A DNA stretch of 64,000 bases, from positions 251,840 through 315,839 of the forward strand of contig JACPBB010000001.1 in the NCBI GenBank assembly GCA_016180525.1, in the 5' to 3' direction. Positions 2,917-54,518 of the stretch are shown piece after piece (positions within the stretch are counted from its first letter, which is position 1; each line of letters starts with the position of its first letter). The translations under genes were made by a program, and so were the position numbers. The notes beneath the pieces were generated by a model, which did not search any database, had not been told where the DNA came from, and worked only from the letters and a program-made list of their open reading frames with translations. This stretch comes from Parcubacteria group bacterium (GTDB taxonomy: Bacteria > Patescibacteriota > Minisyncoccia > Phycocordibacterales > UBA2135).

Positions 2917-4698
2917 CTATTGCCTAATATTATACATCTTGAAGAAGTAGGAGTCTTTCTTTTGGAGAAGATCGCCCGGCTTCCCAATTTCGGTTATTTT
3001 TCCATTATCTAAAACGAGAAGTGTGTCGCAATTCATAACAGTCCCCAAGCGGTGCGCAATGGCCAAAACCGTTATCTTTCCTTTTAAATTTTCTATGACT
3101 TCCTGCACCCGTTTTTCAGATTCGTTATCCAGTGCACTCGTCGCTTCGTCAAGAATGAGTAGTTGTGGATTTCGTGCCAACACTCTGGCAATAACGATTC
3201 TTTGCCGTTGTCCTGCCGACAAGCGGATGCCGCGCTCTCCTATTACCGAATCCCATTTTTTGGGTAATACTTCTATCGTCTCATAAATATTCGCCTGTTT
3301 CGCGGCGTATCTAATTTGTTCATCAGTGATGGTATCGTCAAAAAAACGAATGTTATTTGCTACTGTATCATTTATTAAATGAATATCTTGAGAAACATAC
3401 CCCACATTTCTACGAAATTCATGCAGATCAATTTCTGAGATTAAGGCTCTGTCTAAGAGAATGTCTCCTTTAGTCGGTTTAAATAAACGAAGCACGAGGT
3501 CAACAATCGTTGTTTTCCCCGCGCCAGAGGGGCCGATAAGCCCCACGAGTGACCCTTTGGGAACAGAAAAGGAAACTCCCGAGAGTATTTTTTTGTCTTC
3601 AGTATATCCAAATGACACATTGATAAATGAGAACTTTTCTTTAAACACAAACGCCTGCCCTCCCCTGTCTTCCTCTTCGTTTTTAAGCGCCCTTTTTTGA
3701 TATGAAAGCACGTGCTCAAGATATGGAATCATTCTAAATATGGTTTGAAGATGGGTCTGGAAACTTTGCACTTGAGAAAAAATTCTTTGAATCAAGTATA
3801 CAATGGCTATAAACGCGGGAAGATTAAAGTCTCCCGTTTTATAAGAAAAGGAAAAAAGCAGAAGAATAAAGATGACCCCGAACGGCTGAAAAAAGGAACC
3901 GAATACAGTGCTGATGAGCGCCCTCTTTATTTGAAGTTTCCGCAACGTTTCAAAATATTTTTCACCGACCTCTTCCACCGAATCGGTAACAGACATTGCT
4001 TTTACCGTTTTCATTCCAAGAACGTTTTCATTAACGAAGTGGGCGACACTTCGTGTTTTTTCGGCAACCTCTTGGCTTATCCTGCGCATTGTATTCACAA
4101 TCGGCTGAAATCCGATCGTAATAATAACACCCACACCCATAGTCAAAAGAGTTATGAAGAAAGAGATATTAACCGCGACAATAATATATACCAAAAGGCT
4201 CGTAAGAATGAGAATAAAAGAACTTAATGTCTCCAGAAGCTTTCTCACGTACGCAATTTCAACCGAAAGAACTTTTTCCAAGTGTCCTATTTTTTGATCC
4301 AGAAGGTGCCCCCATTTGGAACGCAGAGATTTTACAAAAAGCTCATCACGAATATTTTTTTCATAGCCATATGCTATTTTGAATTGAACGTATGACCCGA
4401 TAAACAGGACAGCGGCCTTTATGATAAAGAGAACCGCAATAAAAATAAGAAGATAATGTAAAGTAAAATCGGCTCCCAAAAACCCAAATAAACGTTCAAT
4501 AGCTTGTGAAATAAAATCATCTGCCGGACCAGCGTCTGTAATAAAAGAAAAAAGAGGAATCAGGGCATTAGCGCCCACACCCTCAAGAAGGCCGCTTAAA
4601 AAACCGATGCCGGTTAACGCCAGGATTTGTAATTTATAATCGCCAAACGCATCTTTCAACAAAGATAGGCCGCGAATGATTTTTTTAATAATATTCAT
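2917..4698 (-). CDS. ABC transporter, fused permease/ATP-binding protein (MsbA-like exporter)
   Basis: Six N-terminal TM helices. Walker A GPSGAGKTT, ABC signature LSAGQRQR, Walker B ILDEATSALD. Confidence 0.9.
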   Translation of the reverse strand: MNIIKKIIRGLSLLKDAFGDYKLQILALTGIGFLSGLLEGVGANALIPLFSFITDAGPADDFISQAIERLFGFLGADFTLHYLLIFIAVLFIIKAAVLFIGSYVQFKIAYGYEKNIRDELFVKSLRSKWGHLLDQKIGHLEKVLSVEIAYVRKLLETLSSFILILTSLLVYIIVAVNISFFITLLTMGVGVIITIGFQPIVNTMRRISQEVAEKTRSVAHFVNENVLGMKTVKAMSVTDSVEEVGEKYFETLRKLQIKRALISTVFGSFFQPFGVIFILLLFSFSYKTGDFNLPAFIAIVYLIQRIFSQVQSFQTHLQTIFRMIPYLEHVLSYQKRALKNEEEDRGGQAFVFKEKFSFINVSFGYTEDKKILSGVSFSVPKGSLVGLIGPSGAGKTTIVDLVLRLFKPTKGDILLDRALISEIDLHEFRRNVGYVSQDIHLINDTVANNIRFFDDTITDEQIRYAAKQANIYETIEVLPKKWDSVIGERGIRLSAGQRQRIVIARVLARNPQLLILDEATSALDNESEKRVQEVIENLKGKITVLAIAHRLGTVMNCDTLLVLDNGKITEIGKPGDLLQKKDSYFFKMYNIRQ

Positions 4699-4809
4699 AA
4701 TAATCCAGATAACCCAAATTATTTATCCGAATAACCCGGATATAATACTAGATATAATAATTTTGACATATAATTATCTGGGTTATTCGGATACATTTAT
4801 ATATTCGGA
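4699..4809. repeat. intergenic palindromic element, family 'AATAATCC / CCGAATAACCC', copy 1
   Basis: CCGAATAACCCGGATATAAT (about 4727-4746) versus the reverse complement of ATTATCTGGGTTATTCGG (about 4773-4790). Shares ACCCAAATTATTTATCCGAATAACCCGGATATAAT core with 9283-9417. Fills the whole gap upstream of the ABC transporter gene. Confidence 0.75.
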
Positions 4810-6222
4810 TTATGATGACATTTCTCCATTGGCGGTTTGTATCAGAATTTTCGCGATTCGCTCTGACGATTTTCCGTCAACTTTATAACACAGTTTTTGA
4901 AGTAATTGCTTTCGCTCCTCTCGCTTGTAACTTGGGTCAAGAAGGTAGGTATTAATACTTGCCTTAAGTTCATCTTCCGAGCGAGCCAAGTCAACAGCCC
5001 CTGTTTCAAGCACCCACTCCATATGGTCCTGCGTATAGAGCAAGGAAGAGACATCTTTTTTTGTGTGCGGGTGATGGAGAACGTTAAACGCAACATTTAT
5101 AAGCGGCTTGTCAAAGCACACACAATCAAGATTGAGCGTTGAAGCAACAGCAACCAATACGTCACAGTGATATATAAGGTTTGTAAATTTCTTTATCTCA
5201 TCCACGCCCGGGTCCCAATTATCTCCAAAAAAGTCTGAGAGAGTAAAATTTTTATCAACAACTACGTTAGACTCTCCTTCAAAGGCGGTAAGTCGCTTTG
5301 TTCTTGCGTCAGTATAATGCGGACGTATAAAAAGCTGAGCTGGAAGAGATAAAGCTCCTGGGGTGTTTACTAAGCGGACGAAGAACGAGACGACGCGCGC
5401 ATCGTCGGGTGCCCACGCTCCTTCAGAGCCATAAAAAATAATTTTTTTCTTCGGATCAAGCCCTACGGAGCGGCAATACTCCTCTCTGCTTACTAAAATC
5501 TCCGGCCTTCTGTACCAGTCAAATTGCGGAAAGCCTGTAACCACAATCTGCTCGAGCGGCATGGCCTGCACTCGAACAGCTTCTTTCTTCATGCGTTCGG
5601 CTTGCACAATAAGAACATCAGGAATGACGCGATATAACAATTGAGTTATGTTATCCCACCCCTTCGGCATTGCCACCGTTTTAACGCCACGCTTCTCTGC
5701 CTCTTTCATCATGTCTATGTCAAGATGGGCCTGTATTGAAGTAGAAAAAACAAGTGACGGTTTATATTTTTCAAAATATGAAGCATACGTATTGTGACTA
5801 AACACGCGTTTTTCTATAAAACGCGCGAATTTTTTGAGAAGAGGAATTTTGCTTGCGATTGAAAAAAGAATTAAATCTACATATTTCCAAAAAAATGCGC
5901 GCTCCCTCTTTTTGTCTGGCATGAATTGACTGTACATCCACCGAGACTTACTTGAAATAAGGAGTGGCGTTAACTTCGCAAATCGCGAATGTCCCCGTAA
6001 ATGTATACTCGGTGCGACTTCAAGAACGACCTGCTCGTCTTCAAGTTCTTTTTTTAAATATTCCGGAATTGATAGTAAACGATGGGTATCAAAAAAAATC
6101 ACAACGCGGAAACCAGCGTCTTTAAGATGCTTGAGAGTCCCGCTTCGCAGAATATTTCTTACGATAAAACCGCGGGTAATTATAATAAAAATTGTTTTTA
6201 GTTTTGCATTATTATTTTGCAT
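4810..6222 (-). CDS. GT-B fold, TagF-like (CDP-alcohol glycerophosphotransferase-like) surface glycopolymer protein, paralog A
   Basis: TIFIIITRGFIVRN N-terminus, IRPHY and HCDVLVAVASTLNLD...KPLINV C-terminal motifs resembling the TagF kpHP / ...DYSSV...KPiif motifs. Clear paralog of 20288-21661. The annotated ATG sits inside a conserved upstream promoter-like motif, so the true start is uncertain. Confidence 0.4.
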   Translation of the reverse strand: MQNNNAKLKTIFIIITRGFIVRNILRSGTLKHLKDAGFRVVIFFDTHRLLSIPEYLKKELEDEQVVLEVAPSIHLRGHSRFAKLTPLLISSKSRWMYSQFMPDKKRERAFFWKYVDLILFSIASKIPLLKKFARFIEKRVFSHNTYASYFEKYKPSLVFSTSIQAHLDIDMMKEAEKRGVKTVAMPKGWDNITQLLYRVIPDVLIVQAERMKKEAVRVQAMPLEQIVVTGFPQFDWYRRPEILVSREEYCRSVGLDPKKKIIFYGSEGAWAPDDARVVSFFVRLVNTPGALSLPAQLFIRPHYTDARTKRLTAFEGESNVVVDKNFTLSDFFGDNWDPGVDEIKKFTNLIYHCDVLVAVASTLNLDCVCFDKPLINVAFNVLHHPHTKKDVSSLLYTQDHMEWVLETGAVDLARSEDELKASINTYLLDPSYKREERKQLLQKLCYKVDGKSSERIAKILIQTANGEMSS

Positions 6223-14257: not shown

Positions 14258-14259
14258 TG

Positions 14260-20242: not shown

Positions 20243-20330
20243 AAAAATTTAAAATGAAAAGCGAAAACGTAAAATAATTTTGAATTGTTATTTTAAGTTT
20301 TGCGTTTTGCTTTTTGCATTTAGAATTCCT
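20243..20330 (-). promoter_or_regulatory. conserved upstream element, copy upstream of asnB
   Basis: In gene orientation: GCAAAACGCAAAACTTAAAATAAC...TTTTCGCTTTTCATTTTAAATTTTT then ATG. A third, more divergent copy lies at about 6211-6260 upstream of (and overlapping the annotated start of) gene 4810-6222. Confidence 0.6.
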
Positions 20331-21661
20331 GTCAGGAATTCGTTGATTCTTTCGGCTGACTTCCCATCAAGTTTATATATAAATTGACTAATCATATTTT
20401 GCACATCCCTTTGTTGATTTTCTTCCAAAATATTCTTCAAAAATTTTAAAAATTCCTCCTCGCTTCTCGCAAGCCATGTTCCGCGAGATTCCATTAAATG
20501 CCTTACGTAATCGCTTATGAATAGTCGTTTTACCGACGCGCTCTCCGGAGTAGCAGTGACATCAAAGTTAAAGTTTACAACGGGAGTTCCGCACGCAATG
20601 GCGTCAAGCGAAAGCGTGGAGGCAACGTTCACGCACACATCCGCGTGATAGAGAGAGTTGAAAAGATTATACACGTGTTCTATTGAAGTATCATAATGAT
20701 CTCGAAGAGCGTGATTTTGTTTATCGCTCGTGTCAACAGCCATTCCTTTTTGCCCGCGTAAGGATAAAAACCGCTCCGCATCTCCCTTATAACCCAAGTG
20801 CGGGCGTATGAGTATGTTTGCCTCCGCAAGTTTTCCTTCATCCATAAATTTCCTGATTAAAAGAACGTGCTTTGATTCATCAAATAGTTTCGCCCCAGCT
20901 GAACCATAAAGAATTATTTTCTTTTTTGGATCAAAGTTGTGCTTTTTACAAAAATCTTCCCGTGAGAGTAATCCCTCTTTCCGCGCATAGAAATCAAACT
21001 GCGGAATGCCCGTAACGATGATTTCAGTATCAGAATATCCTTGGAGTGTAATCGCCTTCTCGCGCATAAAATTATTCCACACAATAAGAAAATCCGCCTT
21101 GGAGGAAAAAAGCGCCTGAGATACATTGTCCCATGTTTTGGGCATATCAACCGTTATTACACCAAAACGCCGTGCGCTTTCAATTACGCCACAATCACCG
21201 CCCGCTGCTGTATTAAAAACTAAATCAGGTTTATATTTTTCAAAAAGATAATCGTGGGCCAGAAGCGGATTTATAAATGAATGTACGGCGCGAATGATCC
21301 ATTTTGCGAAAGGCACATACCGCAGTGGCGCAAAAAAAATCATCCGAAGCGGAAAAAGAACGGTGCTCGGATTTTGTGGAGTTCCGATACTATACCGATA
21401 TCGGGCATATACACTACTGTTAAAAACAGCCCCCTTATAAAGCTCTTTAAAAAATCTTCTAAATTTTTCTTTTTGGTCCCAATGCAGGGGTTCTAATATT
21501 AAATTTTTATGAGCAAAACTGGAAAACAGTTCTGGCATTTTATAATATGGGGTCAAAACCACAACATGAAAACCGCTCTCAAGGAGACGGGAAACCACTC
21601 CAGTGTGAAACATATTGCGAATGATTCCTCCACGAGAAACAGTGATGAAAATTGTTTTCAT
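20288..21661 (-). CDS. GT-B fold, TagF-like surface glycopolymer protein, paralog B
   Basis: MKTIFITVSRGGIIRN, KYKPDLVF, IRPHL and HADVCVNVASTLSLDAIACGTPVVNF motifs. Paralog of 4810-6222. Confidence 0.4.
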   Translation of the reverse strand: MKTIFITVSRGGIIRNMFHTGVVSRLLESGFHVVVLTPYYKMPELFSSFAHKNLILEPLHWDQKEKFRRFFKELYKGAVFNSSVYARYRYSIGTPQNPSTVLFPLRMIFFAPLRYVPFAKWIIRAVHSFINPLLAHDYLFEKYKPDLVFNTAAGGDCGVIESARRFGVITVDMPKTWDNVSQALFSSKADFLIVWNNFMREKAITLQGYSDTEIIVTGIPQFDFYARKEGLLSREDFCKKHNFDPKKKIILYGSAGAKLFDESKHVLLIRKFMDEGKLAEANILIRPHLGYKGDAERFLSLRGQKGMAVDTSDKQNHALRDHYDTSIEHVYNLFNSLYHADVCVNVASTLSLDAIACGTPVVNFNFDVTATPESASVKRLFISDYVRHLMESRGTWLARSEEEFLKFLKNILEENQQRDVQNMISQFIYKLDGKSAERINEFLTGILNAKSKTQNLK

Positions 21662-21772: not shown

Positions 21773-22939
21773 TTATTGTTTTTCTTTAAGTTCTGACAGA
21801 GCAATCTTTAAAAACGAACCGGGACGCAAAAGTTCAAACGCTTCTCGAGCCATTTTTTGCCTCTCTTGGAATTCTTTATTATCTAAAGCATTATAAAAAT
21901 CAAGGATTGCCTGTTCAGTATCTTTAATACGAGTGTAGTCAACTGTAACGACAAATTTATCATAATCAATAAAATCTTTGAGTGGCAGTTCGCAATCCGT
22001 ATTAATGAGTACCGGAAATCTGCCGAGGGACAATGTTTCAAAAAAACGAACAGAGGCATTTCCGTTTCCTTTTGGGGCAAGCACAAAATCAGTGTGTAGT
22101 ATGCTTTCAACATATTCTTTTTCACCCTTTTCGTATCCAATTTGTTTTTTCCCATCAAACCCGCTTTGCGCGTTGAAAGACCTTCGTAATATAAAATTCG
22201 TATTTAAACGAGTTGACCCGCTAAGAACCTGTACGGCCTTTCTTCTAAAAAAAATGCCTCGCTTATGAAGTTCTGCATATTTGTCTTGAAAAACATATTT
22301 CTTTACATCAGAAAGCAGCGCTCTGCCCGCATATGTAATTCTTCGATAGAAACTCGGAAAGTTCGCCCATCCACAAAAACTGACTGTCGGTTTTTCATTT
22401 TTTTCACGCAAAAAAATGCTTTTCCATATTTTTTTTCTATATTCAGAAAGTTCCGGTGGCCTAAAGTGAAGCGGGTACGGCGGTGTTATTATTTCATTTT
22501 CTTTTTGTTTATATTTATATTGAGAATATCTGAAAATAATAGAATGCGGAATTGAAATATCTTCGTCGGAATCCGTCATCGAGAATACAAGTATCTTCTT
22601 TTTATATTTTTCAGCAAGTGAAATAAAATGCGCAAGAAGAGCCTCCGACTTTCGTAACGCACTCATTTTGTCTTCTTGGTTTTTTTTATTATATGGATAA
22701 CGCAATACCGCGTAGTTGTGTGGTAATAGTAAAAAATCGGCATCCTCTGGATTGCTAACAATTCGTAAAAAATCAAAAGACGCTTCACTGGAAGATCCTT
22801 GAAACATGTTCCACAAATTCGGCTCTATCTCTTTGTTTTTATGCAAAACTTTTTCAAGAAAAAAAACGAGTGGAGCATTTTTAAGAGGTGCCCCTATATA
22901 TACAGATATAACATTATTATTCATATTGTTTTTTAACAA
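21773..22939 (-). CDS. GT47 (exostosin-like) family glycosyltransferase, paralog 1
   Basis: C-terminal FVLAPKGNGNASVRFFETLSLGRFPVLINTDCELP...DYDKFVV matches the exostosin/GT47 motif F.L.PRG.G..S.R..EA...GCIPV.ISD...P....I.W..F.V. Confidence 0.55.
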   Translation of the reverse strand: MLKNNMNNNVISVYIGAPLKNAPLVFFLEKVLHKNKEIEPNLWNMFQGSSSEASFDFLRIVSNPEDADFLLLPHNYAVLRYPYNKKNQEDKMSALRKSEALLAHFISLAEKYKKKILVFSMTDSDEDISIPHSIIFRYSQYKYKQKENEIITPPYPLHFRPPELSEYRKKIWKSIFLREKNEKPTVSFCGWANFPSFYRRITYAGRALLSDVKKYVFQDKYAELHKRGIFFRRKAVQVLSGSTRLNTNFILRRSFNAQSGFDGKKQIGYEKGEKEYVESILHTDFVLAPKGNGNASVRFFETLSLGRFPVLINTDCELPLKDFIDYDKFVVTVDYTRIKDTEQAILDFYNALDNKEFQERQKMAREAFELLRPGSFLKIALSELKEKQ

Positions 22940-23627
22940 AAATTAAAGACATGCCAACAAAAGCATACAGGGTGTATGACCTCTCTGAAAGAAACGCGTA
23001 TATCTCATTTTCGCGCGGAACATCAGGATTAAATCTTGTGCTTTCAACGACGACAACGCGTGGAGCATATTTCCCCCAGTCGTTTGACTCCAAAACCTCT
23101 AAGTCCATTCCCTCCGCGTCTACATTTAACAAATCTATAGCCGTTCCTAGTGGAACATAATGCTTTAAAATTTCTCTAAGCGAGACACACGATATTTTTT
23201 GTTCACCGATAAAATTGACTCCAGATTTTTGTCTCCACATTTCTGCTTTTTCTTTTGAAAATGTATTCCAATTTGAGTGAGAAAATGTATAGTATGTTAA
23301 ATTTTTTCTTTCATTTGAAATGCCGGTTTGTATATTTGTGTCGTTGCGCCGGCAGAGATCAAAAAGTTTGATTGTTTCCGGATTTGGGTCTATATTTATC
23401 CCCCCCCACCCCTTTTTGTGTAAAAGATATGTGTTTGAATAGTGTTTCGGGTGATATGCCCCAACATCAACATAAAAACCGTTTTTTTTCTTGAGAAGCT
23501 TCTGGAGAATAACGTCTTCACCAAATTGTGAATAAGATTTTTGAGGATTGCTAAAAAAAGTATTTTTAAAAAAAGATATGCGTGGAAAATATGAACGAGG
23601 GATGAGTCGTTTTAATTGTTTTATCAT
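22917..23627 (-). CDS. FkbM-family methyltransferase
   Basis: YSQFGEDVILQKLL...GFYVDVGAYHPKHYSNT and NVDAEGMDLEVL are typical of the Methyltransf_21/FkbM domain. Confidence 0.75.
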   Translation of the reverse strand: MIKQLKRLIPRSYFPRISFFKNTFFSNPQKSYSQFGEDVILQKLLKKKNGFYVDVGAYHPKHYSNTYLLHKKGWGGINIDPNPETIKLFDLCRRNDTNIQTGISNERKNLTYYTFSHSNWNTFSKEKAEMWRQKSGVNFIGEQKISCVSLREILKHYVPLGTAIDLLNVDAEGMDLEVLESNDWGKYAPRVVVVESTRFNPDVPRENEIYAFLSERSYTLYAFVGMSLIFVKKQYE

Positions 23628-23688: not shown

Positions 23689-24615
23689 TCACTTATTTTC
23701 TATAACTATTTTTATAATGTAGGGGGTGCTTCCTTTGTTTTCATAATAAATACGAAGAATTATTTCAGCGAGAAAGCCCATCATGATGAGAAGTACCCCC
23801 ACAACGACAAAAAGCGCCGCAAGCGTCGGTAGAGGAGTTTGAGATAAATGAAAAAGTCCCAGCAATTTAAGAACAACGGACGAGGCGGCAGAGACAATTC
23901 CGAGAAAAATAGAAACAAGTCCCCATCCACCAAAAAATAAAAAGGGGCGCGCCAAGTAGTCAGACATAAACTTTATGACCAAGAGATCCGCGAAGCTTTT
24001 CATAAGCTTTGTGAGGTGGTATTTTGATACTCCTGACTTTCTGTATGCATGGCTAACAGGAACTTCGGCAACTCGCGCTCCACGAGCATATAAAATAGCA
24101 GGCAAAAAAGAGTGCATTTCCCCATATAAATGTAATCCCGCAAGGACTTCTTTGCGAATTGCTTTAAGAGGCGCCGCGGAATCGTGGAGCGGTAATCCGG
24201 TAATAGCGCTAGTAAGATTATTCGCCATGCGAGAAATCATCTTTCGCGTGAAACCATCGTGACGATTGGCGCGCCAACCTGAGACAACATCATATCCCTC
24301 GCGCAACTTTTGAATAAGGAGTGGAATATCTTCTGGGTTATTTTGTAAATCTGCGTCAATCGTCACAATAACATCGCCCCCGGCTTTCTTTATTCCGGCA
24401 TCAAGAGCCGCCGACTGTCCTTTATTTTTAGCTAAAGAAATTATTGTTAGTGGATAAAGTTTTTTAAGCGCCGCGAGAGTTTCGTCTGTTGACCCGTCAT
24501 CAACCGCAATAATTTCAAAATCCTCTGAAAGCCCCTCAAGCGATTGCCGTATGCGAAGGTGAAGTTCTTCAATATTCTTTTCTTCGTTATATGCGGGGAA
24601 AATAACCGAGATCAT
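23689..24615 (-). CDS. GT2 polyprenyl-phosphate glycosyltransferase with C-terminal TM helices (GtrB/ArnC-like)
   Basis: MISVIFPAYNEE, IIAVDDGSTDET, DADLQNNPEDIP and two C-terminal TM helices. Confidence 0.85.
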   Translation of the reverse strand: MISVIFPAYNEEKNIEELHLRIRQSLEGLSEDFEIIAVDDGSTDETLAALKKLYPLTIISLAKNKGQSAALDAGIKKAGGDVIVTIDADLQNNPEDIPLLIQKLREGYDVVSGWRANRHDGFTRKMISRMANNLTSAITGLPLHDSAAPLKAIRKEVLAGLHLYGEMHSFLPAILYARGARVAEVPVSHAYRKSGVSKYHLTKLMKSFADLLVIKFMSDYLARPFLFFGGWGLVSIFLGIVSAASSVVLKLLGLFHLSQTPLPTLAALFVVVGVLLIMMGFLAEIILRIYYENKGSTPYIIKIVIENK

Positions 24616-24687
24616 AAAAGCTAAATTAAAAATGAAAAATAATCTTAATATGACTATAACATCAAAAATAACAAAAAAGTAATTGTT

Positions 24688-25431
24688 TTATAATGATTTT
24701 TGCGCGACAACCAAAATAGAACTTCCCCAGGGAATAGGTATTATTTTCATCAAAATCCGCTCCATGGTAAGCCAGAATATTAAAAGTGAGTTCAAAAATG
24801 TGGGAAGTATAATGTCATCAGTTTTCGGCTGATTATTTTTTCTAGAAAAACGGAATGCCTTTCCCGCAAAAAATTTTAGTGCTCTAAACGGAATTGATAA
24901 AAAAACAAAGTGACTTGATTCTTTAATTATAAAGCCGGCCATCATTATTTTTTCAAGCAATTCTTTCTTTGCATATCGTCGCTTATGATGGAGCGCGATA
25001 TCGTGCTCCGACCACATCCATTTATACGCTGGAACGGTCAACAAAAAAAATCCACCGGGCTTTAAAATTCTAAATATTTCATGAAGTGCCCTCACGTCAT
25101 CATCAATGTGCTCAATAACATCAAGCGCGGATGCCCCATCAAAACAATTGTTCGGGAATGGAAGTTCTGTTGCAGAGCCTCGAACTATTTTTTTATATCC
25201 TTCTGCCTCTGCATATCGAAGCGCCTCATCATTTGAATCAACCCCCACCACTTCTCCAAATTCTCTGAGAAAAAGAATGTTTCCTCCGGGGCCGCATCCC
25301 ACATCAAGAATATTTCCCGTCTTTAAACGTGCGTGGCGCCTAAGCGCGTCTTTCAAGATGCGTCGCCTACCAACATTCCACCAAAAAAACCGCTCTCGGT
25401 CCTTTAAAAGTTTATATTCTTTATGTTCCAT
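24688..25431 (-). CDS. class I SAM-dependent methyltransferase
   Basis: LDVGCGPGGN, VGVDSN, FDGASALDVIEHIDDD, LKPGGFFLLTVP motifs. Confidence 0.85.
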   Translation of the reverse strand: MEHKEYKLLKDRERFFWWNVGRRRILKDALRRHARLKTGNILDVGCGPGGNILFLREFGEVVGVDSNDEALRYAEAEGYKKIVRGSATELPFPNNCFDGASALDVIEHIDDDVRALHEIFRILKPGGFFLLTVPAYKWMWSEHDIALHHKRRYAKKELLEKIMMAGFIIKESSHFVFLSIPFRALKFFAGKAFRFSRKNNQPKTDDIILPTFLNSLLIFWLTMERILMKIIPIPWGSSILVVAQKSL

Positions 25432-26053
25432 TGCGTTTATGCAGATAGACTTTGTTCAAAACATGAAATAATTTTGTGATAAAAGAGTTTTCAAAAAGAT
25501 TGTCGCTGTGAATAAGGATGCTTCGGCGCATTCCAGAGGCAATAGGGAGATTTCCGTGATATGTTGTTGACCCGTCGAAAACCATAACATCGCCTGCCTT
25601 AAGGGAAACTCGTGTAAAAAATTTGTCTCGTATCGATTTCCTGGGAAGAATAAGCCATGAAATAGGGTTTGTCCAAAATAATTTCGTAAGAGTATATATG
25701 AGTGAGGATTTGGTATGGCGGCGAAGATTCGGACGTATCAGTATGTCTCCATTCTCTTCTCCCAGAACAGAGCGAAGAACAATGAGTATTGTTTTTCTCT
25801 GATTATCAAAATGCCAACATTGTGATGCCCTGTTTCCTTTTTCTGTTACAGATCGTATTACGGTATATGCATTTTCCCCAAACTTGATGTTATCGCACTC
25901 TGCAAAAAGCTTATCTTTAAAGTCAGCTAATATTGTTTCACTGTGGGGAGGAGGTATAATTTCAAAACTCTCCCCACTGCTTGCGGCATCAATTTTTTTA
26001 TTTATCGCATCCAAAACCTCATTACTTATTGCTTGTTTTAAAATTGTATGCAT
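25421..26053 (-). CDS. hypothetical protein, possible 2OG-Fe(II) oxygenase/PhyH-like fold
   Basis: WHFD (HxD) followed about 75 aa later by TYHG is compatible with the HxD...H facial triad. Weak. Confidence 0.3.
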   Translation of the reverse strand: MHTILKQAISNEVLDAINKKIDAASSGESFEIIPPPHSETILADFKDKLFAECDNIKFGENAYTVIRSVTEKGNRASQCWHFDNQRKTILIVLRSVLGEENGDILIRPNLRRHTKSSLIYTLTKLFWTNPISWLILPRKSIRDKFFTRVSLKAGDVMVFDGSTTYHGNLPIASGMRRSILIHSDNLFENSFITKLFHVLNKVYLHKRNGT

Positions 26054-26086
26054 AAAAGCAACGTGTCATAGATATTATATAGAAAG

Positions 26087-27907
26087 TTATCTTGTTTGGT
26101 ATCTATAAATAATAACCACGCCCGTATCATATAATTTTTCATACCTTTCTAAAAATGTTCTGTTCATGGCAATTTTTTCCTCACGCGGACCTACAAAAAT
26201 ATAATCAAGGTGATACGGAATTTCTTGTGGCACTATGAATGTTTCATACTCGTGAATATACAACGTGGATACATCAGGCGGAAGTTTGTATACAGGATAC
26301 TTATATGGCCGTAATGCTGAATCAAGTGCTCTGCTATTATATTCCGCGGTAAAAAAATTAAAAACACCGCGTTCTGACTCAATAGTTTCGGCAAACACAG
26401 CAGGAGAAATACCTAAAAACTTATATGTAATAAAAAAACGGTCAAGAACCTCTACTTTTGAAAGAAGGTTGTTTTGAGATCGCGCCTGAAAGATTCTGTT
26501 GTGCGTATATGCCGCGAGCTCAATGTTTGTCTCAATCGATGGGGTCATGACAACACTGTCTTTGGGCGTATTTTTATTAAGCCATTCATATGCCTCCATA
26601 AGAGCCGGGGCAACGGTATAATTGGCGGCATATTTTATATTTTCCTTAATTGTGCTTTCTAGAACGTGCGTCGTCAAAAACAAAATGGAAATGAGCGCAA
26701 GGACTGAAAATATTTTTCTCAAATACAAAGATCGCGACTTGAGCAATGGATTCACAAGAACCCATCCATAATATGCAAGCGTCGGCAATATCATTCCGTT
26801 AACAATTAAAAAAACCTTATTCCCCCAATGGTCAGACTGAAGTGAAAAACCGGTAATGACATTTATGTTATACACGATAATCCCCGTCACAGACAACGCG
26901 GCAAGAAAAAAACCAAGGGTTTTTTTAGAAAGTTTTTGTCCGATGTAAAGAGCCGCTCCCGCCATAAACGTGTGCAGGATATAAGTCTTCCATAAAAACC
27001 ATCGTACGCCATACTCCTCTTCAATACCCATACGAGCCATAATATCATCGTAGGAAGGAAGTTGAGAAAGATTATATTGATTTATCCAGAACGGAACGGA
27101 GACAATGACTCCGATAATGCCAGATAAAAAAACGGTTTTAGCGAAGGAGTAATTTTTTGTTAATACAAAAAACAAAAAAAGAACGCCGAGAAAAATTGTT
27201 GCAAACACCCAGAAATAAAAATAGAGATAAAAGAGCAGCCCATAAAAGATTCCTCCTAAAACAATGAAGGTTTTTTGTCTTGATTCTTCAGTAAGCGCTC
27301 TATACACAAAATAAAACATCAATACAAAAAATGGACCGCTCGGAATGTATGAATCTCTCGCTAAGAAATTAAGTTCAGAAGTTGTGACTCCTGAAAACGG
27401 AATAAATTGAAATATAAGCGCCTTCAGCTCGGTTAAAGACGAGGGAGGCAGGAGGGTCGACAATTGTGGAAAAAGCATAACCGCGTATGCGGAAACAAGA
27501 GAGAAGAATCTATGCTGTGTAAATCTATAGAGAACTAAAAAGAGTGATATGAAAATAAGTATTGGAAAAATAAATTCTGTTATTATGATTCCGGGAAAGA
27601 TTGACTCAAATGGCAAGAAAAATGGAAAAAGAATTGTAGCTGATAAAATTGGCCATAAAATAGGGCCGCCTTTGTGCTCATATGTGTCCATTTCGCCAGG
27701 AATAAACGCCCCGTCGACAATGTCTCGATAACGAGCGGCGTGAATGTTAATGTGGTCAAATGTTGAAGTAATGGTAAGCGGAATATAACGTTCTCCACGA
27801 TCTGTGAGTGTTTCATAACGGACAAAATGCGGCAAAACAGAATAAACGATGCCGATCATAAGAACAGCAAAGAAAAAAAGGATCTTAAACGAAAACAATT
27901 TTTGCAT
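26087..27907 (-). CDS. large polytopic membrane protein (putative GT-C-type glycosyltransferase or polymerase)
   Basis: 606 aa with at least 12 hydrophobic segments plus a soluble C-terminal domain. Sits in glycan-locus context. No precise family match. Confidence 0.4.
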   Translation of the reverse strand: MQKLFSFKILFFFAVLMIGIVYSVLPHFVRYETLTDRGERYIPLTITSTFDHINIHAARYRDIVDGAFIPGEMDTYEHKGGPILWPILSATILFPFFLPFESIFPGIIITEFIFPILIFISLFLVLYRFTQHRFFSLVSAYAVMLFPQLSTLLPPSSLTELKALIFQFIPFSGVTTSELNFLARDSYIPSGPFFVLMFYFVYRALTEESRQKTFIVLGGIFYGLLFYLYFYFWVFATIFLGVLFLFFVLTKNYSFAKTVFLSGIIGVIVSVPFWINQYNLSQLPSYDDIMARMGIEEEYGVRWFLWKTYILHTFMAGAALYIGQKLSKKTLGFFLAALSVTGIIVYNINVITGFSLQSDHWGNKVFLIVNGMILPTLAYYGWVLVNPLLKSRSLYLRKIFSVLALISILFLTTHVLESTIKENIKYAANYTVAPALMEAYEWLNKNTPKDSVVMTPSIETNIELAAYTHNRIFQARSQNNLLSKVEVLDRFFITYKFLGISPAVFAETIESERGVFNFFTAEYNSRALDSALRPYKYPVYKLPPDVSTLYIHEYETFIVPQEIPYHLDYIFVGPREEKIAMNRTFLERYEKLYDTGVVIIYRYQTR

Positions 27908-36479: not shown

Positions 36480-37832
36480 TTATATCGTATCGTATCCAAG
36501 ATTGCTATAATGCAATCCTTTTATATTAACAATCTCTTCTTTGGGCAACATAGACCATGTATCAAAAATAAGAGCTGGTTTTGCCATCTCACGGACATGC
36601 TCAATTTCTAAATTTTTATATTCTGGATGGTTAGTCATGATCACTATGGCATGCTTGTCCTTGAAGATGGCTTTTCCATCCGCAATCGGTTTTGCACCAT
36701 GTTTTGCAATTACATCGTCCGCAACAACAAAGTCGTGGCCGTGTATATGTATATTTGGATTACCTTTCAAGAACTTTAAAACATCAAGTGTCGGAGAAAA
36801 TCGCATATCCGACGTCGGCGGCTTGCCTTTAAACGCAAACCCTAAAATTGCCACGTGTTTTACGGCTGTTTCTTTGTGGTGCGTATTTAAAAATTTCATA
36901 ATTTGCCCGTAGACATACTCAGGCATTGCTTCATTCACACTTCTCCCCACTGCAGGAAGCTTCATCTCATATCCACGCTGCCGCGCGCTGTATTGCAATA
37001 TGTATGGATCCTTTGAAAGACAATATCCACCGACGCCTGGACTGGGAACGGGAATTTTGTCTCGAGTATATGCCTCGTTTGCAGCGTGTACTATTTTGTT
37101 TGTATCAAGATTAAACACGTCACATGCTCTCGCAAATTCATTTGCAAATGCAAAATTAAAATCACGAAACGTATTATTGAGAAGTTTTACCATTTCCGCC
37201 TCTTCAAGAAAATCAAGCATGATAGATTGGGGAGCAAAATGCTCAAAAAGTGCCTGTGTCAATGTCGCGCTTCTTTTATCAATACCCGCAATCACTTGCG
37301 GCAAGGTTCGTAATTCCTGAAGCGCGTCTCCTTCCACTGTCCGCTCGGGTGCAAATGCGACAGAAAAATCGGGTCCTGCTGTAAGGCCGGAACATTTTTC
37401 TAAAATTGGAATAACAAAATCACGGGTTGTGCCAACTGGCACTGTTGAGCGCAAAATTACCAAGTCTCCTCTTTTGAGCACTGCTCCAATATGCCTCGCG
37501 GAGTTTTCAAGATCTCTGAAAACGGGAGTATAGTTTAGAACTGGTGTCCCCACCGCGATAATATAGGTCGTTATGAGGTCATCGCGAGGAATAGTATCAA
37601 AACATTCAAATCCTTCGCGCTGCTGTTTTTCCAAAAGAGGCCTGAGACCTTTTTCATAAAAATGTGGCTGTAGATTGTTTATGCCATCAACAACCGTTCG
37701 GTTTATGTCAACCCCGTATACGCGCTTGCCACATTCATAAAGCGTTACTGCGAGAGTCAGGCCAACATACCCGAGCCCAAGAACACAAACGCTATTATTG
37801 GGAGCTGATTTTTTTGTTCTAAATGAATTCAT
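36480..37832 (-). CDS. nucleotide-sugar 6-dehydrogenase (UDP-glucose/GDP-mannose dehydrogenase family)
   Basis: VCVLGLGYVGLTLAV NAD-binding N-terminus and catalytic Cys motif GGYCLSKDP. 450 aa. Confidence 0.85.
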   Translation of the reverse strand: MNSFRTKKSAPNNSVCVLGLGYVGLTLAVTLYECGKRVYGVDINRTVVDGINNLQPHFYEKGLRPLLEKQQREGFECFDTIPRDDLITTYIIAVGTPVLNYTPVFRDLENSARHIGAVLKRGDLVILRSTVPVGTTRDFVIPILEKCSGLTAGPDFSVAFAPERTVEGDALQELRTLPQVIAGIDKRSATLTQALFEHFAPQSIMLDFLEEAEMVKLLNNTFRDFNFAFANEFARACDVFNLDTNKIVHAANEAYTRDKIPVPSPGVGGYCLSKDPYILQYSARQRGYEMKLPAVGRSVNEAMPEYVYGQIMKFLNTHHKETAVKHVAILGFAFKGKPPTSDMRFSPTLDVLKFLKGNPNIHIHGHDFVVADDVIAKHGAKPIADGKAIFKDKHAIVIMTNHPEYKNLEIEHVREMAKPALIFDTWSMLPKEEIVNIKGLHYSNLGYDTI

Positions 37833-39804: not shown

Positions 39805-40959
39805 CTATTGAAAACTGTGGTACATAGTAATGTGTCTTTCTGTTGATTTACGCCAATTAAATTTTTCACGCACAAAGAGTTTCGCGCGCTCGCCCATTTT
39901 TTTTCGCACAATAGGATTATTGTAAAGAAAAACTATTTTCTCCGCAAGCGCACGAGAATCTCTTTCTTGTACTAAAAAACCAGATTTTCCATCTTCAACT
40001 GCCTCCGGTATACCACCACTGTGTGTTCCTAAGACTGGAACGCCATACTGTTGTGCTTCGAGATACGCGATGCCAAGACCTTCAATGTCCCCCTCTTCTG
40101 TATAGAAAAAAGACGGCATTGAGAAAAGATTTGAAATATTGTAAAAAACGGACACATCGGGAACCTTTCCCGCAAAAATAACCAGATCTGTAGCTCCGAG
40201 CGAGCGCGCCAATGTTTCAAAGTTTTTCCTCTCTGGACCATCTCCCACAAACATAAGTTTTATATGAAAATTTTTAATATTAGCGATTGCTTGAATTAAA
40301 TATTCTCCCCCTTTCCGCTTCACTAAGTGCCCGACATAAAGAACAAGAAAGTCAGCAGGTGTAATTTTGTATTTTTCTCTTATTGTCCGGGCGTCATCTT
40401 GAGAAACCTCCGGTGGAGTATCTCTAAGTGGATAATATATAACCGAGAGCTGTGACGCCAAAATACCATAGCGCTTTATTATTTCGTTTCGTGTTGAATT
40501 GCTAACCGCTATCGCGCGCGTCGCATGCCTTAATGTCCACTCTTTGGCAAAACGAGTCTTTCCGCTTCCTCGTCTCTCTAGTATGTCTGTTCCGTGAAAA
40601 GTAACAAAAACAGGCTTACGAAAAATATATCTTCCAATAAGTACTGCGAGGAATCCCATTGGAAAAACGTGTGTCGCGTGAAAAACATCATACTTCCTAT
40701 ACTTAAACGCGTAATAGCAGATGCTAAAAAAAATAGCGGCAAAAGACTTTTTATCGTCTCGAATAATTAATAATTTTTCATTTTCATATTCTTCACCCTT
40801 TTCCTGATTTTTAAGCGCAACAACGCTGACATAAGTGACGCTCGGTGATTGTGCCATGTAAAAGGAGAGACTGTGCGTAAATTCCGATATGCCTCCAACT
40901 GTCGGAGGAAAATCGGTTGTAAAAAAAACAATTTTTAGTTTTTTATTTTTTTGCTGCAT
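39805..40959 (-). CDS. GT4 (group 1) glycosyltransferase
   Basis: KLKIVFFTTDFPPTVGGISEF and EGLGIAYLEAQQYGVPVLGTHSGG. The track ORF begins at a GTG 10 codons upstream, so the start is placed at the ATG (MQQKNKKLKIVFF). Confidence 0.85.
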   Translation of the reverse strand: MQQKNKKLKIVFFTTDFPPTVGGISEFTHSLSFYMAQSPSVTYVSVVALKNQEKGEEYENEKLLIIRDDKKSFAAIFFSICYYAFKYRKYDVFHATHVFPMGFLAVLIGRYIFRKPVFVTFHGTDILERRGSGKTRFAKEWTLRHATRAIAVSNSTRNEIIKRYGILASQLSVIYYPLRDTPPEVSQDDARTIREKYKITPADFLVLYVGHLVKRKGGEYLIQAIANIKNFHIKLMFVGDGPERKNFETLARSLGATDLVIFAGKVPDVSVFYNISNLFSMPSFFYTEEGDIEGLGIAYLEAQQYGVPVLGTHSGGIPEAVEDGKSGFLVQERDSRALAEKIVFLYNNPIVRKKMGERAKLFVREKFNWRKSTERHITMYHSFQ

Positions 40960-41828
40960 AGTATCATTCCAAAATCTTTTTCCTTCCACGGTGTTATAAG
41001 AATATCAAGAACATATAATTTCACATACGCCCCGAAGGCAAAAAACATGAAAAAGAAATTCTTAAGCGTTTTTTGCCGTTTCCATTTTCCCCATAAGTGA
41101 AGTGAGCCAAGTTCATATAATAATGTCGGTGGACGACGAAACCACGCAGTCATGGGCGTAAATCCATTTTGTGTTAAAAATTGTTTCAAATTATCTTCAG
41201 AAAATTGAAATAAGTGGTGAGGCGGGGTCAGCACAGACCATGAAATATTAAACCGTTTGTAGAGTTTAAATGTTGTTTTAGCCCAAAAAGAATCGAGATT
41301 TGGTGTTGAAATAACAAGCACTCCAGTACTCTTTAGGACTCTGTGAGATTCAACAAGCAGTTCTTTGGGATTTTTCACGTGCTCAATAATGTCACCCAAG
41401 AAAACAGTGTCAAAAAAATTATCTGCATAGTGAGCATCTTTGAGTGTCCCCTGTTTTACATTGAGTTCGCGTGACCGCGCGATCTCCGCGGTCAATTCAT
41501 TTATTTCCACTCCATACGTCTCAAATCCTCTTTGTTTCGCGAAAAATAAAAAGTCGCCATTTGAGCAGCCGACATCGAGTAGTTTTCCATTTGAAACTGT
41601 CTTCTGTAAATAATTAAGTATTTTTTTAATATGCCGACTTTCTTTTACCGCAAGTTTTTTTCTATGCTTTTGATACCCGGCTTTTTTTGAATAAACCTCC
41701 TCTTGTAAATGCCGCTCATCGGGTTGCGGATTTACAAAAACAAGCCCGCATGCGGGACATTTTTGGTAGCCATACCTGTCTTTTTCAACGAAAAAGGCTG
41801 TTTTATTATTGCATATGAGACAGTTCAT
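40935..41828 (-). CDS. class I SAM-dependent methyltransferase with N-terminal Zn-ribbon
   Basis: CLICNN...CPACG zinc ribbon. LLDVGCSNGDF, VEINE, FDTVFLGDIIEHVKNP, LKSTGVLVIS motifs. Confidence 0.85.
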   Translation of the reverse strand: MNCLICNNKTAFFVEKDRYGYQKCPACGLVFVNPQPDERHLQEEVYSKKAGYQKHRKKLAVKESRHIKKILNYLQKTVSNGKLLDVGCSNGDFLFFAKQRGFETYGVEINELTAEIARSRELNVKQGTLKDAHYADNFFDTVFLGDIIEHVKNPKELLVESHRVLKSTGVLVISTPNLDSFWAKTTFKLYKRFNISWSVLTPPHHLFQFSEDNLKQFLTQNGFTPMTAWFRRPPTLLYELGSLHLWGKWKRQKTLKNFFFMFFAFGAYVKLYVLDILITPWKEKDFGMILCSKKIKN

Positions 41829-44839: not shown

Positions 44840-44914
44840 ATGAGTAGTAATTCTTCAGATTATATACTGTATATAAACAAAATACACGCTATTGAGTTGC
44901 ATAGTGGATGTATT

Positions 44915-45433
44915 TTAAAACGATGCCAGGAGTTGTGCAAATTCGTTTAAATTTGAAACTTCCGGAAACTCTGTTTGCTTGATATCGCTGCCGTATTTCA
45001 TTTCTTTCCGTCGCATACGAATCCCGACAATGTGTGGACATTGTTTTTTCATGTTTTGCAGTTGCGCAAAATCGTCATCAAGAAAAATTATTTTTTCTTC
45101 TGCGTGCTTAAATATGCGCTTGATTATATCCCCCTTCATTTCAGTACCGGTAAATATAGATTCTGAAAATAAGTTGAGGATTCCACTTTGTTGAACTTTA
45201 GCTTTTTGATATTTTTTATCGCCAAATGTCACCAAAATGAGACGGTGCTGTGAATGGTTTTTTAAAAAATCCACCGTGTCGGGAAACAAGAACATACCCG
45301 CTTTCCCGTGCTCTTTAAGAATTTTAAGACAGCGGTTGCTGTGTTCAACGCATGAGATATTCTCTAGCCCCATTTCTTTTTTATACTGCTCCGTATTAAA
45401 AAGTGTCCAATCAAAATCCAATAAAATGCGCAT
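44915..45433 (-). CDS. HAD-superfamily hydrolase
   Basis: Motif I DFDWTL (DxDxT) and motif IV FLDDD. Confidence 0.6.
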   Translation of the reverse strand: MRILLDFDWTLFNTEQYKKEMGLENISCVEHSNRCLKILKEHGKAGMFLFPDTVDFLKNHSQHRLILVTFGDKKYQKAKVQQSGILNLFSESIFTGTEMKGDIIKRIFKHAEEKIIFLDDDFAQLQNMKKQCPHIVGIRMRRKEMKYGSDIKQTEFPEVSNLNEFAQLLASF

Positions 45434-45440
45434 ATCAATT

Positions 45441-46448: not shown

Positions 46449-46500
46449 ATCTTGTATTCATCATAACTCTTTATGCTTACAAAAAGTACCTGACACAATT

Positions 46501-47337: not shown

Positions 47338-47377
47338 ATTATTTTAAAAAATTGGTGCCAGGTACCTTTTTCATTTT

Positions 47378-49494: not shown

Positions 49495-49538
49495 ATAAAG
49501 AATTTCTAATTCACCTAATAAAATGTTTAACGCAAAAA

Positions 49539-54441: not shown

Positions 54442-54518
54442 ATGTTTAGAAAAAATTAAATGGAATAATATACAATACTGTAACTGGAAAATGCCCACAA
54501 AAGCAACTTTGCCGCGCG

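What the first reader, a model, noticed from the sequence alone, without database searches (positions are those of the whole stretch)
21773..22939. GT47 (exostosin-like) glycosyltransferase in a bacterial genome, paralog 1
The C-terminal catalytic region reproduces the GT47 hallmark motif seen in animal exostosins and plant MUR3/IRX10 (F-x-L-x-P-x-G-x-G/A-x-S-x-R-F-x-E-T-L-x-x-G-x-I/F-P-V-L-I-x-T/D, then a P...DY..F.V segment). GT47 is overwhelmingly eukaryotic, and bacterial members are rare. Two paralogs in one locus, together with UDP-GlcA/UDP-xylose-forming enzymes (UGDH and UXS-like), hint at a xylose- or uronic-acid-containing glycan reminiscent of plant cell-wall chemistry.
Basis: partly seen in the sequence, partly recalled or inferred. 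Interest (0 to 1): 0.6.

Follow-up and report, generated by a model that had tools for sequence, protein, structure and literature searches.

The report
Exostosin-type glycosyltransferase in a Parcubacteria genome
The gene really does encode an exostosin-family (GT47-like) sugar-adding enzyme, but it belongs to a large subfamily that is common in tiny "candidate phyla radiation" bacteria and is already labelled this way in public databases, so it is a sound but fairly ordinary finding whose exact sugar chemistry is still unknown.

Summary

Paralog 2 (48445-49494) is real and 40% identical.

The genome is a Parcubacteria (CPR) MAG, and NCBI already names this exact protein "exostosin family protein". 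The subfamily is not rare. It has over 1000 clusters at 50% identity, and 345 relatives were found in species-representative genomes; the 80 best are nearly all labelled CPR.

Paralog 2 sits in a GT4-rich cluster conserved across CPR. Paralog 1 belongs to a sister clade with a changed sugar-binding loop. That clade lies next to TagF-like enzymes, ABC exporters and methyltransferases.

A true UXS homologue exists (53362-54498), but it is 30 kb away, next to paralog 2's cluster. The donor sugar is undetermined, and the "plant-like chemistry" idea is unsupported.

The parts
21773..22924 (-). GT47_1: exostosin-family GT-B glycosyltransferase, 383 aa, soluble (the finding)
21938..22087 (-). C-terminal exostosin motif, aa 280-329. 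It contains the sugar-reading loop G286-V292, R293 (= EXT1 R346) and E296 (= EXT1 E349).
   Evidence: Alignments to EXT1 are. Roles of the EXT1 residues come from PMC9675754. R293 is conserved in 84/84 and E296 in 81/84 CPR homologues.
22571..22573 (-). Codon of D118, an invariant Asp in the loop after N-domain strand 111-115. It is the candidate catalytic base (inferred).
   Evidence: D118 is invariant in 57/57 and 84/84. Equivalence to EXT1 D162/D164 is not shown by sequence.
22917..23627 (-). FkbM-family methyltransferase, translationally coupled to GT47_1 by an 8-nt overlap
   Evidence: PF05050 E 1e-21. Overlap seen. An FkbM gene is also adjacent to GT47 in L006 and L009.
20288..21661 (-). 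TagF-like (Glyphos_transf) enzyme immediately downstream of GT47_1
   Evidence: PF04464 E 1e-8, above the gathering score. It is syntenic at 71-72% identity next to GT47_1 orthologues in L010 and L083.
23689..27907 (-). Conserved upstream module: ArnC/GtrB-like polyprenyl-phosphate GT2 (23689-24615), methyltransferase (24688-25431), orf210 (25421-26053) and the multi-TM orf606 (26087-27907; possibly the GT-C partner, inferred)
   Evidence: searches (ArnC model E 5e-54, below its cut-off; TM-like segments), and synteny in L010 and L083.
48445..49494 (-). GT47_2: second exostosin paralog, 349 aa, inside a GT4-rich cluster conserved across CPR
   Evidence: PF03016 E 1e-16. It is 40% identical to GT47_1. 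Synteny is seen in L007, L011, L013, L014, L019 and L066.
39805..52258 (-). Conserved CPR core glycan cluster: five GT4 genes (one of them fused to GtrA), GT47_2, YvcK/CofD-like, HAD-like orf172, truncated NDP-sugar dehydrogenase, orf340, orf278 and a methyltransferase
   Evidence: At least one of the four core GT4 genes lies within 6.5 kb of the GT47 in 51 of 75 non-paralog-1 loci.
53362..54498 (-). UXS-like UDP-glucuronate decarboxylase homologue. It forms a trio with a GFO oxidoreductase (52358-53317) and a C-methyltransferase (54519-55757).
   Evidence: Human UXS1 E 2.2e-55. The trio is syntenic in L049 at 74/49/64% identity.
36480..37832 (-).
   Evidence: TIGR03026 subfamily E 1.5e-105. 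Best equivalog hits are UDP-ManNAc dehydrogenases, far below their cut-offs.
2917..6222 (-). HepA/MsbA/PglK-type ABC exporter (2917-4698) and a second TagF-like enzyme (4810-6222). This pair recurs next to paralog-1-clade GT47 genes elsewhere.
   Evidence: In L002, L005 and L008 the exporter is 62-68% identical and lies near the GT47.

Best explanation
The gene encodes a soluble, cytoplasmic GT-B glycosyltransferase of the exostosin (GT47) type. It belongs to a large subfamily found throughout Patescibacteria (CPR).

Proposed mechanism, inferred by analogy with EXT1: the C-terminal domain binds a UDP-sugar. R293 and one or both of the invariant R227/R247 sit on the diphosphate, E296 binds the ribose, and Y271 stacks on the uracil. 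The invariant D118 in the N-terminal domain deprotonates the acceptor hydroxyl. Transfer would be metal-independent and inverting, and would add one sugar to a membrane-anchored (polyprenyl-linked) glycan intermediate on the cytoplasmic face.

Paralog 2 is the 'core' copy, inside a GT4-rich envelope-glycan cluster conserved across CPR. Paralog 1 (the finding) belongs to a sister clade that arose by duplication. That clade carries a changed sugar-reading loop (GNGNAS instead of GDGN[YF]S). It has been recruited into variable accessory modules that combine TagF-like phosphotransferases, an MsbA/PglK-type ABC exporter, an ArnC-like GT2 and O-methyltransferases. These modules look like a teichoic-acid-like or O-antigen-like, heavily methylated surface polymer.

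Shown here: family, fold, conserved residues, duplication, and gene context. Inferred: the catalytic roles of the residues, the inverting mechanism, a UDP-sugar donor, a lipid-linked acceptor, and the kind of polymer. The identity of the sugar is unknown.
For: Family and fold:
- PF03016 is above threshold for this protein and for all 57 aligned homologues.
- A profile of the subfamily hits EXT1 at 8e-7, EXTL3 at 1e-4 and EXT2 at 1e-3, but A075L (GT114) only at 0.024.
- The AF2 model has pLDDT 90.6.
- The top 16 Foldseek hits are all EXT1/EXT2/EXTL3.

Active site:
- R293, E296, Y271 and loop 286-292 align with EXT1 R346, E349, Y324 and G339-F345. Their roles are described in PMC9675754 and PMC9178029.
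- D118, R227 and R293 are each conserved in 84/84 homologues, R247 in 83/84 and E296 in 81/84.

Location: no TM-like segment and no signal-like N-terminus.

Lineage: the exact protein is named as Parcubacteria, and the 80 best genomic relatives are almost all labelled CPR.

Duplication and context:
- An NJ tree places the paralog-1 clade as sister to the paralog-2 clade.
- Asn287 and Ala290 are specific to the paralog-1 clade.
- Synteny of orf606-MT-GT2-GT47-TagF-like-AsnB is seen in L010 and L083.
- A TagF-like gene or the ABC exporter lies within 6.5 kb in 5/7 paralog-1-clade loci against 2/75 others.
- The gene is translationally coupled to an FkbM methyltransferase gene.
Against: - No activity data exist for any member of this subfamily, and I found no paper on a bacterial GT47.
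- Sequence similarity to animal exostosins is confined to the C-terminal half. An N-domain-only profile finds no exostosin in the PDB even at E<=10. The assignment of D118 as base therefore rests on invariance and position only.
- The structure is a prediction.
- The NJ tree has no support values, and the context statistic is not corrected for relatedness of the genomes.
- CAZy split A075L out of GT47 into GT114 despite a PF03016 hit (PMC11571054). A Pfam hit alone therefore does not guarantee that CAZy would file this protein under GT47.
Confidence: 0.8

Rival explanations
1. One reading: a rare bacterial GT47 that, together with UGDH and UXS, makes a xylose- or glucuronate-containing glycan reminiscent of plant cell walls. 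The donor would be UDP-Xyl or UDP-GlcA.
For: A true UXS homologue is in the window, as is a nucleotide-sugar dehydrogenase. Characterised GT47, GT114 and RXYLT1 enzymes use UDP-GlcA, UDP-Xyl, UDP-Gal and similar donors (PMC9675754, PMC11571054). Of the 57 homologues, 51 show weak similarity to the RXYLT1 C-terminal domain.
Against: - The subfamily is common in CPR, not rare.
- UXS is 30 kb from paralog 1. It forms a trio with a GFO oxidoreductase and a C-methyltransferase, conserved in L049, which suggests a modified pentose rather than plain UDP-Xyl.
- A UXS at >=45% identity occurs near the GT47 in only 1 of 82 loci, although the flanks were only 6 kb.
- The dehydrogenase looks more like a UDP-ManNAc dehydrogenase than UGDH.
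- EXT1's R340/R341 in the GlcA-reading loop are Asn/Gly here and Asp/Gly in most of the family.
Confidence: 0.2
2. An RXYLT1-like role: paralog 1 glycosylates a polyol- or acid-phosphate unit laid down by the neighbouring TagF-like enzyme (or makes the acceptor for it). This would parallel the way mammalian RXYLT1 xylosylates ribitol-5-phosphate. It is a more specific version of the best explanation.
For: GT47_1 and a TagF-like gene are adjacent in the window, L010 and L083. TagF-like genes or the exporter are enriched around the paralog-1 clade. There are weak RXYLT1_C hits. A nucleotidyltransferase, a glycerate-2-kinase-like gene and a CDP-alcohol transferase are in the same locus.
Against: The RXYLT1_C match is below Pfam's threshold (20.1 against 27 bits) and covers only the motif shared by the whole exostosin superfamily. 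Adjacency does not give reaction order. L006 has a paralog-1-clade gene with no TagF-like neighbour within 10 kb.
Confidence: 0.15
3. It is really a GT114 (A075L-like) or other non-GT47 GT-B enzyme that only shares the C-terminal nucleotide-binding motif.
For: A075L also matched PF03016 and was once called GT47 (PMC11571054). The N-terminal domain shows no sequence similarity to EXT proteins.
Confidence: 0.07
4. It is a catalytically dead pseudo-glycosyltransferase, like the GT47 domains of EXT2 and EXTL3, with a scaffolding role.
For: Pseudo-GT47 domains exist in animals (PMC9675754, PMC9178029). The window has two copies.
Against: The residues lost in EXT2 (the R346 equivalent and the Asp pair) are present and conserved here: R293 and D118 in 84/84, E296 in 81/84. 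Orthologues retain 48-66% identity across genomes.
Confidence: 0.04
5. It is a recent horizontal acquisition from a eukaryote or a giant virus.
For: GT47 is best known from eukaryotes. Exostosin-like proteins occur in giant viruses and in a cyanophage.
Against: Identity to EXT1 is only 14-16%. The subfamily is deeply diversified (30-40% identity among members) across many CPR lineages and sits in conserved synteny. The local GC content is not anomalous.
Confidence: 0.03

Closest known systems
Animal exostosin EXT1, N-terminal GT47 domain (heparan sulfate beta-1,4-glucuronyltransferase; PDB 7ZAY, 7SCH)
   Different: Identity is only 14-16%. There is no GT64 second domain, no type II membrane anchor and no Golgi lumen setting; the protein is soluble and cytoplasmic. 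The N-domain is not alignable by sequence. The GlcA-reading loop lacks R340/R341.
Plant GT47 enzymes (MUR3, IRX10, XGD1, ARAD1; Golgi cell-wall glycosyltransferases)
   Same: They share the Pfam/CAZy family and the conserved C-alpha-4 Asp/Glu, for example IRX10 E293 (PMC9178029), which corresponds to E296 here.
   Different: They were not compared directly, because no plant sequences or structures were available to the tools. The plant enzymes are membrane-anchored, lumenal and act on wall polysaccharides. No evidence links this locus to such polymers.
A075L of chlorovirus PBCV-1 (CAZy GT114 beta-xylosyltransferase; PDB 8ASA, 8AVQ, 8Q8I)
   Same: It is also a small, soluble, cytosolic exostosin-like GT-B enzyme with an Asp base and two Arg on the phosphates, and it is metal-independent and inverting (PMC11571054). 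GT114 is reported to have bacterial members.
RXYLT1/TMEM5 (ribitol-5-phosphate beta-1,4-xylosyltransferase of the dystroglycan glycan)
   Same: It has an exostosin-like C-terminal domain, and 51 of 57 homologues give weak PF24785 hits. There is a conceptual parallel: an exostosin-like GT working next to a polyol-phosphate transferase.
   Different: The score is below Pfam's threshold for this protein (20.1 against 27 bits). No structure was available to compare. The parallel is an analogy, not a tested relationship.
Uncharacterised 'exostosin family protein' annotations in Patescibacteria MAGs (NCBI)
   Same: This exact sequence, and relatives at up to 66% identity, are already deposited under that name.
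   Different: None of them has an assigned substrate, product or pathway.

Membership tests
GT47 / Pfam Exostosin_GT47 (PF03016) | Significant match to the family HMM above its curated threshold | tested here: met
   56.3 bits against a gathering score of 33.4, E 4e-15, profile positions 41-286 of 293. All 57 aligned homologues match.
GT47 / Pfam Exostosin_GT47 (PF03016) | GT-B fold (two Rossmann-like domains) | tested here: met
   AF2 model with pLDDT 90.6 and pTM 0.90. All significant structural neighbours are GT-B enzymes. This is a prediction, not an experimental structure.
GT47 / Pfam Exostosin_GT47 (PF03016) | Closer to bona fide GT47 domains than to any other GT family | tested here: met
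GT47 / Pfam Exostosin_GT47 (PF03016) | Conserved donor-site residues: Arg on the diphosphate and Asp/Glu on helix C-alpha-4 (EXT1 R346/E349; IRX10 E293) | tested here: met
   R293 and E296 align to R346 and E349. They are conserved in 84/84 and 81/84 homologues. Residue roles come from PMC9675754 and PMC9178029.
GT47 / Pfam Exostosin_GT47 (PF03016) | Sequence similarity over the N-terminal (acceptor) subdomain, including the EXT1 D162/D164 site | tested here: inconclusive
GT47 / Pfam Exostosin_GT47 (PF03016) | Inverting, metal-independent transfer from a UDP-sugar | not testable with these tools
   This needs an enzyme assay and product NMR.
GT47 / Pfam Exostosin_GT47 (PF03016) | Assignment by CAZy or the dbCAN GT47 model | not tested
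   No dbCAN or CAZy resource is among the tools. This matters because CAZy moved A075L from GT47 to GT114 (PMC11571054).
GT114 (A075L-like) | Closer to A075L than to members of other GT families | tested here: not met
RXYLT1 C-terminal domain (PF24785) | Match above the Pfam gathering score | tested here: not met
   20.1 bits against 27, over aa 270-313 only.

The most novel reading that the evidence does not exclude
The CPR exostosin subfamily may be the first prokaryotic GT47 lineage with a definable role. The core copy (paralog 2) would help build an envelope glycopolymer conserved across Patescibacteria. The paralog-1 clade would be a neofunctionalised duplicate, with an altered sugar-reading loop, that decorates a TagF-made phosphodiester polymer in an RXYLT1-like manner. 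If so, these bacteria would offer a soluble, tractable model for exostosin catalysis and a deep bacterial branch for rooting the eukaryotic GT47 family.
Probability: 0.2. Interest if true: 0.6.

Novelty: new member of a known kind. Interest (0 to 1): 0.33.

Why it matters
In the literature searched here, GT47 enzymes have been studied only in animals (heparan sulfate, hereditary multiple exostoses) and plants (xylan, xyloglucan, pectin). There they are Golgi membrane proteins that are hard to produce. A soluble bacterial relative with the same donor-site residues could serve as a convenient model enzyme. A conserved GT4/GT47 cluster could also point to a still-unknown surface polymer of CPR bacteria, whose envelopes are barely characterised. 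As a genome annotation, however, the finding adds nothing new. The family label is already public and the substrate remains unknown.

Tried and rejected
1. Foldseek against afdb50, to find the nearest UniProt relatives and their taxa: the library was not available.
2. A second homologue search using the 57-sequence alignment, to reach non-CPR or eukaryotic relatives: it returned essentially the same CPR set.
3. A search with the 81-aa EXT1 fragment, to obtain full-length EXT1 sequences for a profile-profile alignment of the N-domain: only exon-sized fragments under 142 aa came back.
4. An N-domain-only profile against the PDB: no exostosin hit at E<=10. The mapping of D118 to EXT1 D162/D164 therefore stays an inference.
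5. Literature searches for bacterial or CPR GT47 enzymes found no characterised prokaryotic member. The GT47 review (doi 10.1042/EBC20220152) is not held.
6. NCBIfam has no model that matches either paralog.
7. Rejected readings: GT114 membership, pseudoenzyme, and recent transfer from a eukaryote (see the rival explanations).
8. The SDR at 35368-36366 was rejected as the UXS, because it is equally similar to dTDP-glucose dehydratases and epimerases.

Full report
**Observation**

The ORF reported at 21773-22939 lies on the minus strand. Its translation carries the quoted motif FVLAPKGNGNASVRFFETLSLGRFPVLINTDCELPLKDFIDYDKFVVTV at aa 280-329 of the 383-aa protein. The TTG at 22939 is only the first possible start. 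The ATG at 22924 gives a 383-aa protein identical to a deposited NCBI protein. It overlaps the stop codon of the upstream FkbM methyltransferase gene by 8 nt. I therefore take 21773-22924 as the gene.

Pfam PF03016 (Exostosin_GT47) matches at E 4.1e-15 and 56.3 bits, against a gathering score of 33.4. The match covers nearly the whole profile. The second paralog is at 48445-49494 (PF03016 E 9.8e-17). It is 40% identical to paralog 1 over aa 47-373.

**Family and fold**

PF03016 also used to capture chlorovirus A075L, which CAZy has since moved into a new family, GT114 (PMC11571054). I therefore tested which family this protein is closer to.

| Test | GT47 domains (EXT1 / EXT2 / EXTL3) | A075L (GT114) |
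|---|---|---|
| Profile of 57 homologues (A1) against PDB, E-value | 8.4e-7 / 1e-3 / 1.3e-4 | 0.024 |
| Foldseek on the AF2 model, E-value | top 16 hits, 6e-9 to 2e-6 | 1.3e-4 |

One caveat applies. A profile of the N-terminal domain alone finds no exostosin in the PDB even at E<=10. Sequence similarity to the animal enzymes is thus limited to the nucleotide-binding half, and the N-domain relationship is structural only. A dbCAN/CAZy assignment could not be run.

**Active site**

In EXT1, UDP is held by R280, R346, E349, Y319 and Y324. D162/D164 are the candidate base, loop G339-F345 is proposed to read the GlcA, and the reaction needs no metal (PMC9675754). E349 corresponds to the conserved C-alpha-4 acidic residue of the family (PMC9178029).

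The alignments give these equivalences:

- R293 = R346
- E296 = E349
- Y271 = Y324
- G286-V292 = G339-F345

Across 84 CPR homologues, conservation is as follows:

| Residue | Conservation |
|---|---|
| D118, R227, R293 | 84/84 each |
| K/R285 | 84/84 |
| R247 | 83/84 |
| E296 | 81/84 |
| Y/F271 | 81/84 |

D118 sits in the loop just after an N-domain strand and is my candidate base; this is an inference. The residues that are lost in the inactive EXT2 and EXTL3 domains are present here, so the enzyme is probably active. It has no TM-like segment. Unlike eukaryotic GT47 enzymes, it should therefore act in the cytoplasm.

**Organism and distribution**

The identical protein is labelled [quoted passage not shown] and is found on contigs up to 344 kb. 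All 104 homologues from that search carry PF03016. Those that carry a taxon label are Parcubacteria, Patescibacteria, Paceibacterota or Kaiserbacteria.

An exhaustive HMM search of 1.84 billion cluster representatives gives 1075 hits at E<=1e-30, 2301 at E<=1e-10 and 6084 at E<=1e-3. A scan of one genome per GTDB species finds 345 relatives. The 80 best are almost all labelled Patescibacteria (Paceibacterota, Peregrinibacteria/Peribacteria, Kaiser-, Zambryski-, Yonath-, Adler-, Vogel- and Taylorbacteria, and many MAGs labelled Saccharibacteria). A few small MAGs carry doubtful "Gammaproteobacteria" labels. That scan used motifs of this subfamily, so it does not measure GT47 in other bacteria.

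The claim that bacterial members are rare does not hold for this lineage. The deep divergence among members (about 30-40% identity) in conserved synteny also argues against recent transfer from eukaryotes.

**Context**

The window from 655 to about 57 kb is almost entirely one minus-strand glycan locus. It contains:

- seven GT4 genes, two GT2 genes, a PMT_2-type GT-C and two TagF-like genes
- two GT47 genes
- eight methyltransferases, two of them sugar C-methyltransferases
- a DegT aminotransferase, a cupin/FdtA-like protein, a carbamoyltransferase and AsnB
- nucleotide-sugar enzymes and an MsbA/PglK/HepA-type ABC exporter

I compared window proteins with the ORFs of 87 related loci. Most CPR GT47 genes sit in a conserved cluster: GT4 - GtrA-GT4 - GT47 - GT4 - YvcK - orf172 - truncated NDP-sugar dehydrogenase - GT4 - orf340 - methyltransferase - GT4. 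This is the window's 39805-52258 region and holds paralog 2. L007, L011, L013 and L066 are examples.

Paralog 1 belongs to a small clade (48-66% identity: L002, L005, L006, L008, L009, L010, L083). In an NJ tree this clade is sister to the paralog-2 clade (no support values). L010 and L083 reproduce the window's order orf606 - (orf210) - methyltransferase - ArnC-like GT2 - GT47 - TagF-like - (AsnB). L002, L005 and L008 place the gene near the same ABC exporter and a TagF-like enzyme. A TagF-like gene or the exporter lies within 6.5 kb in 5 of 7 paralog-1-clade loci against 2 of 75 others. The Fisher p of 1.5e-5 is not corrected for relatedness.

All eight paralog-1-clade members have Asn at position 287 and a small residue at 290 in the sugar-reading loop (GNGNAS). 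The rest of the family has Asp and an aromatic residue (GDGN[YF]S). This pattern fits a duplicate that changed specificity and was recruited to accessory, teichoic-acid-like or O-antigen-like modules.

The gene at 53362-54498 is a convincing UXS homologue (human UXS1 E 2.2e-55). It is 30 kb from paralog 1. It forms a trio with a GFO oxidoreductase and a C-methyltransferase, and this trio is conserved in L049 beside the core cluster.

The dehydrogenase at 36480-37832 scores best with UDP-ManNAc dehydrogenase models and is below every equivalog cut-off. The adjacent SDR at 35368-36366 is not specifically UXS.

EXT1's two arginines in the GlcA-reading loop are absent here, which is a weak argument against UDP-GlcA as donor. 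The donor sugar is unknown, and a plant-like glycan is not supported.

**Novelty and verdict**

The family assignment is correct but already public. No paper on a prokaryotic GT47 was found, so the function is uncharacterised. I rate it a new member of a known kind, with modest interest. Its value lies in offering a soluble model exostosin and in pointing to a conserved CPR envelope-glycan cluster.

Noticed in passing
window 39805-52258; also L007, L011, L013, L014, L019, L066: A GT4-rich gene cluster appears in many Patescibacteria genomes with preserved gene order. It comprises GT4, GtrA-GT4 fusion, GT47, GT4, YvcK/CofD-like, HAD-like orf172, truncated NDP-sugar dehydrogenase, GT4, orf340, methyltransferase and GT4. 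It may encode a core envelope glycopolymer of CPR bacteria.
   Followed up: partly
window 43895-44839: A 314-aa UDP-glucose/GDP-mannose dehydrogenase-like protein lacks the C-terminal UDP-binding domain. It is conserved at that length and at up to 77% identity in other CPR genomes (L007, L013), so it is not a pseudogene. Its function is unclear.
   Followed up: partly
window 13574-18314 (and 8482-9282): An operon segment holds an SDR, a KduI-like cupin, an enolase-superfamily acid-sugar dehydratase-like protein, a glycerate-2-kinase-like protein (DUF4147+MOFRL) and a nucleotidyltransferase. It lies just downstream of AsnB and a TagF-like gene, and a CDP-alcohol phosphatidyltransferase is nearby. 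It may make a nucleotide-activated acid or polyol phosphate for a TagF-type polymer.
   Followed up: no
window 52358-55757; L049: A UXS homologue, a GFO/IDH/MocA oxidoreductase and an NDP-hexose-type C-methyltransferase form a trio that is conserved in L049 (74/49/64% identity). This suggests a C-methylated or otherwise modified pentose rather than plain UDP-xylose.
   Followed up: partly
window 655-57206: About 57 kb, roughly 47 genes nearly all on one strand, is devoted to glycan synthesis in a genome of a lineage known for very small genomes. It includes eight methyltransferases, a carbamoyltransferase and two sugar C-methyltransferases, which implies a very heavily decorated surface glycan.
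   Followed up: partly
window 23689-27907: An ArnC/GtrB-like polyprenyl-phosphate glycosyltransferase (two C-terminal TM segments) lies near a 606-aa multi-TM protein with no family match. The pair may be a GtrB/GT-C type system for glycosylation outside the membrane. orf606 has homologues at 48-63% identity in L006, L010 and L083.
   Followed up: partly
window 55758-63456: Beyond the glycan locus lie a secreted-looking Lamin-tail/PKD-domain protein, a 525-aa protein with a weak NYN domain, a TrwB/VirD4-like type IV coupling ATPase (60175-62229) and a DUF4015 putative glycoside hydrolase.
   Followed up: no
L008 and L083 (same contig CAZNJQ010000007.1), L011 (same MAG); contig with P0015 and P0018: Other CPR MAGs also carry two or three exostosin paralogs, sometimes two paralog-1-clade copies about 10 kb apart. 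Repeated duplication of this gene seems to be a lineage habit.
   Followed up: partly
BFVD hits M4QPL1 (Synechococcus phage S-SKS1) and A0A2H4UTB8 (Bodo saltans virus): Exostosin-like GT-B proteins in a cyanophage and a giant virus are structural matches to the model, with Foldseek E-values (1e-8 and 7e-8) similar to those of the human EXT proteins.
   Followed up: no
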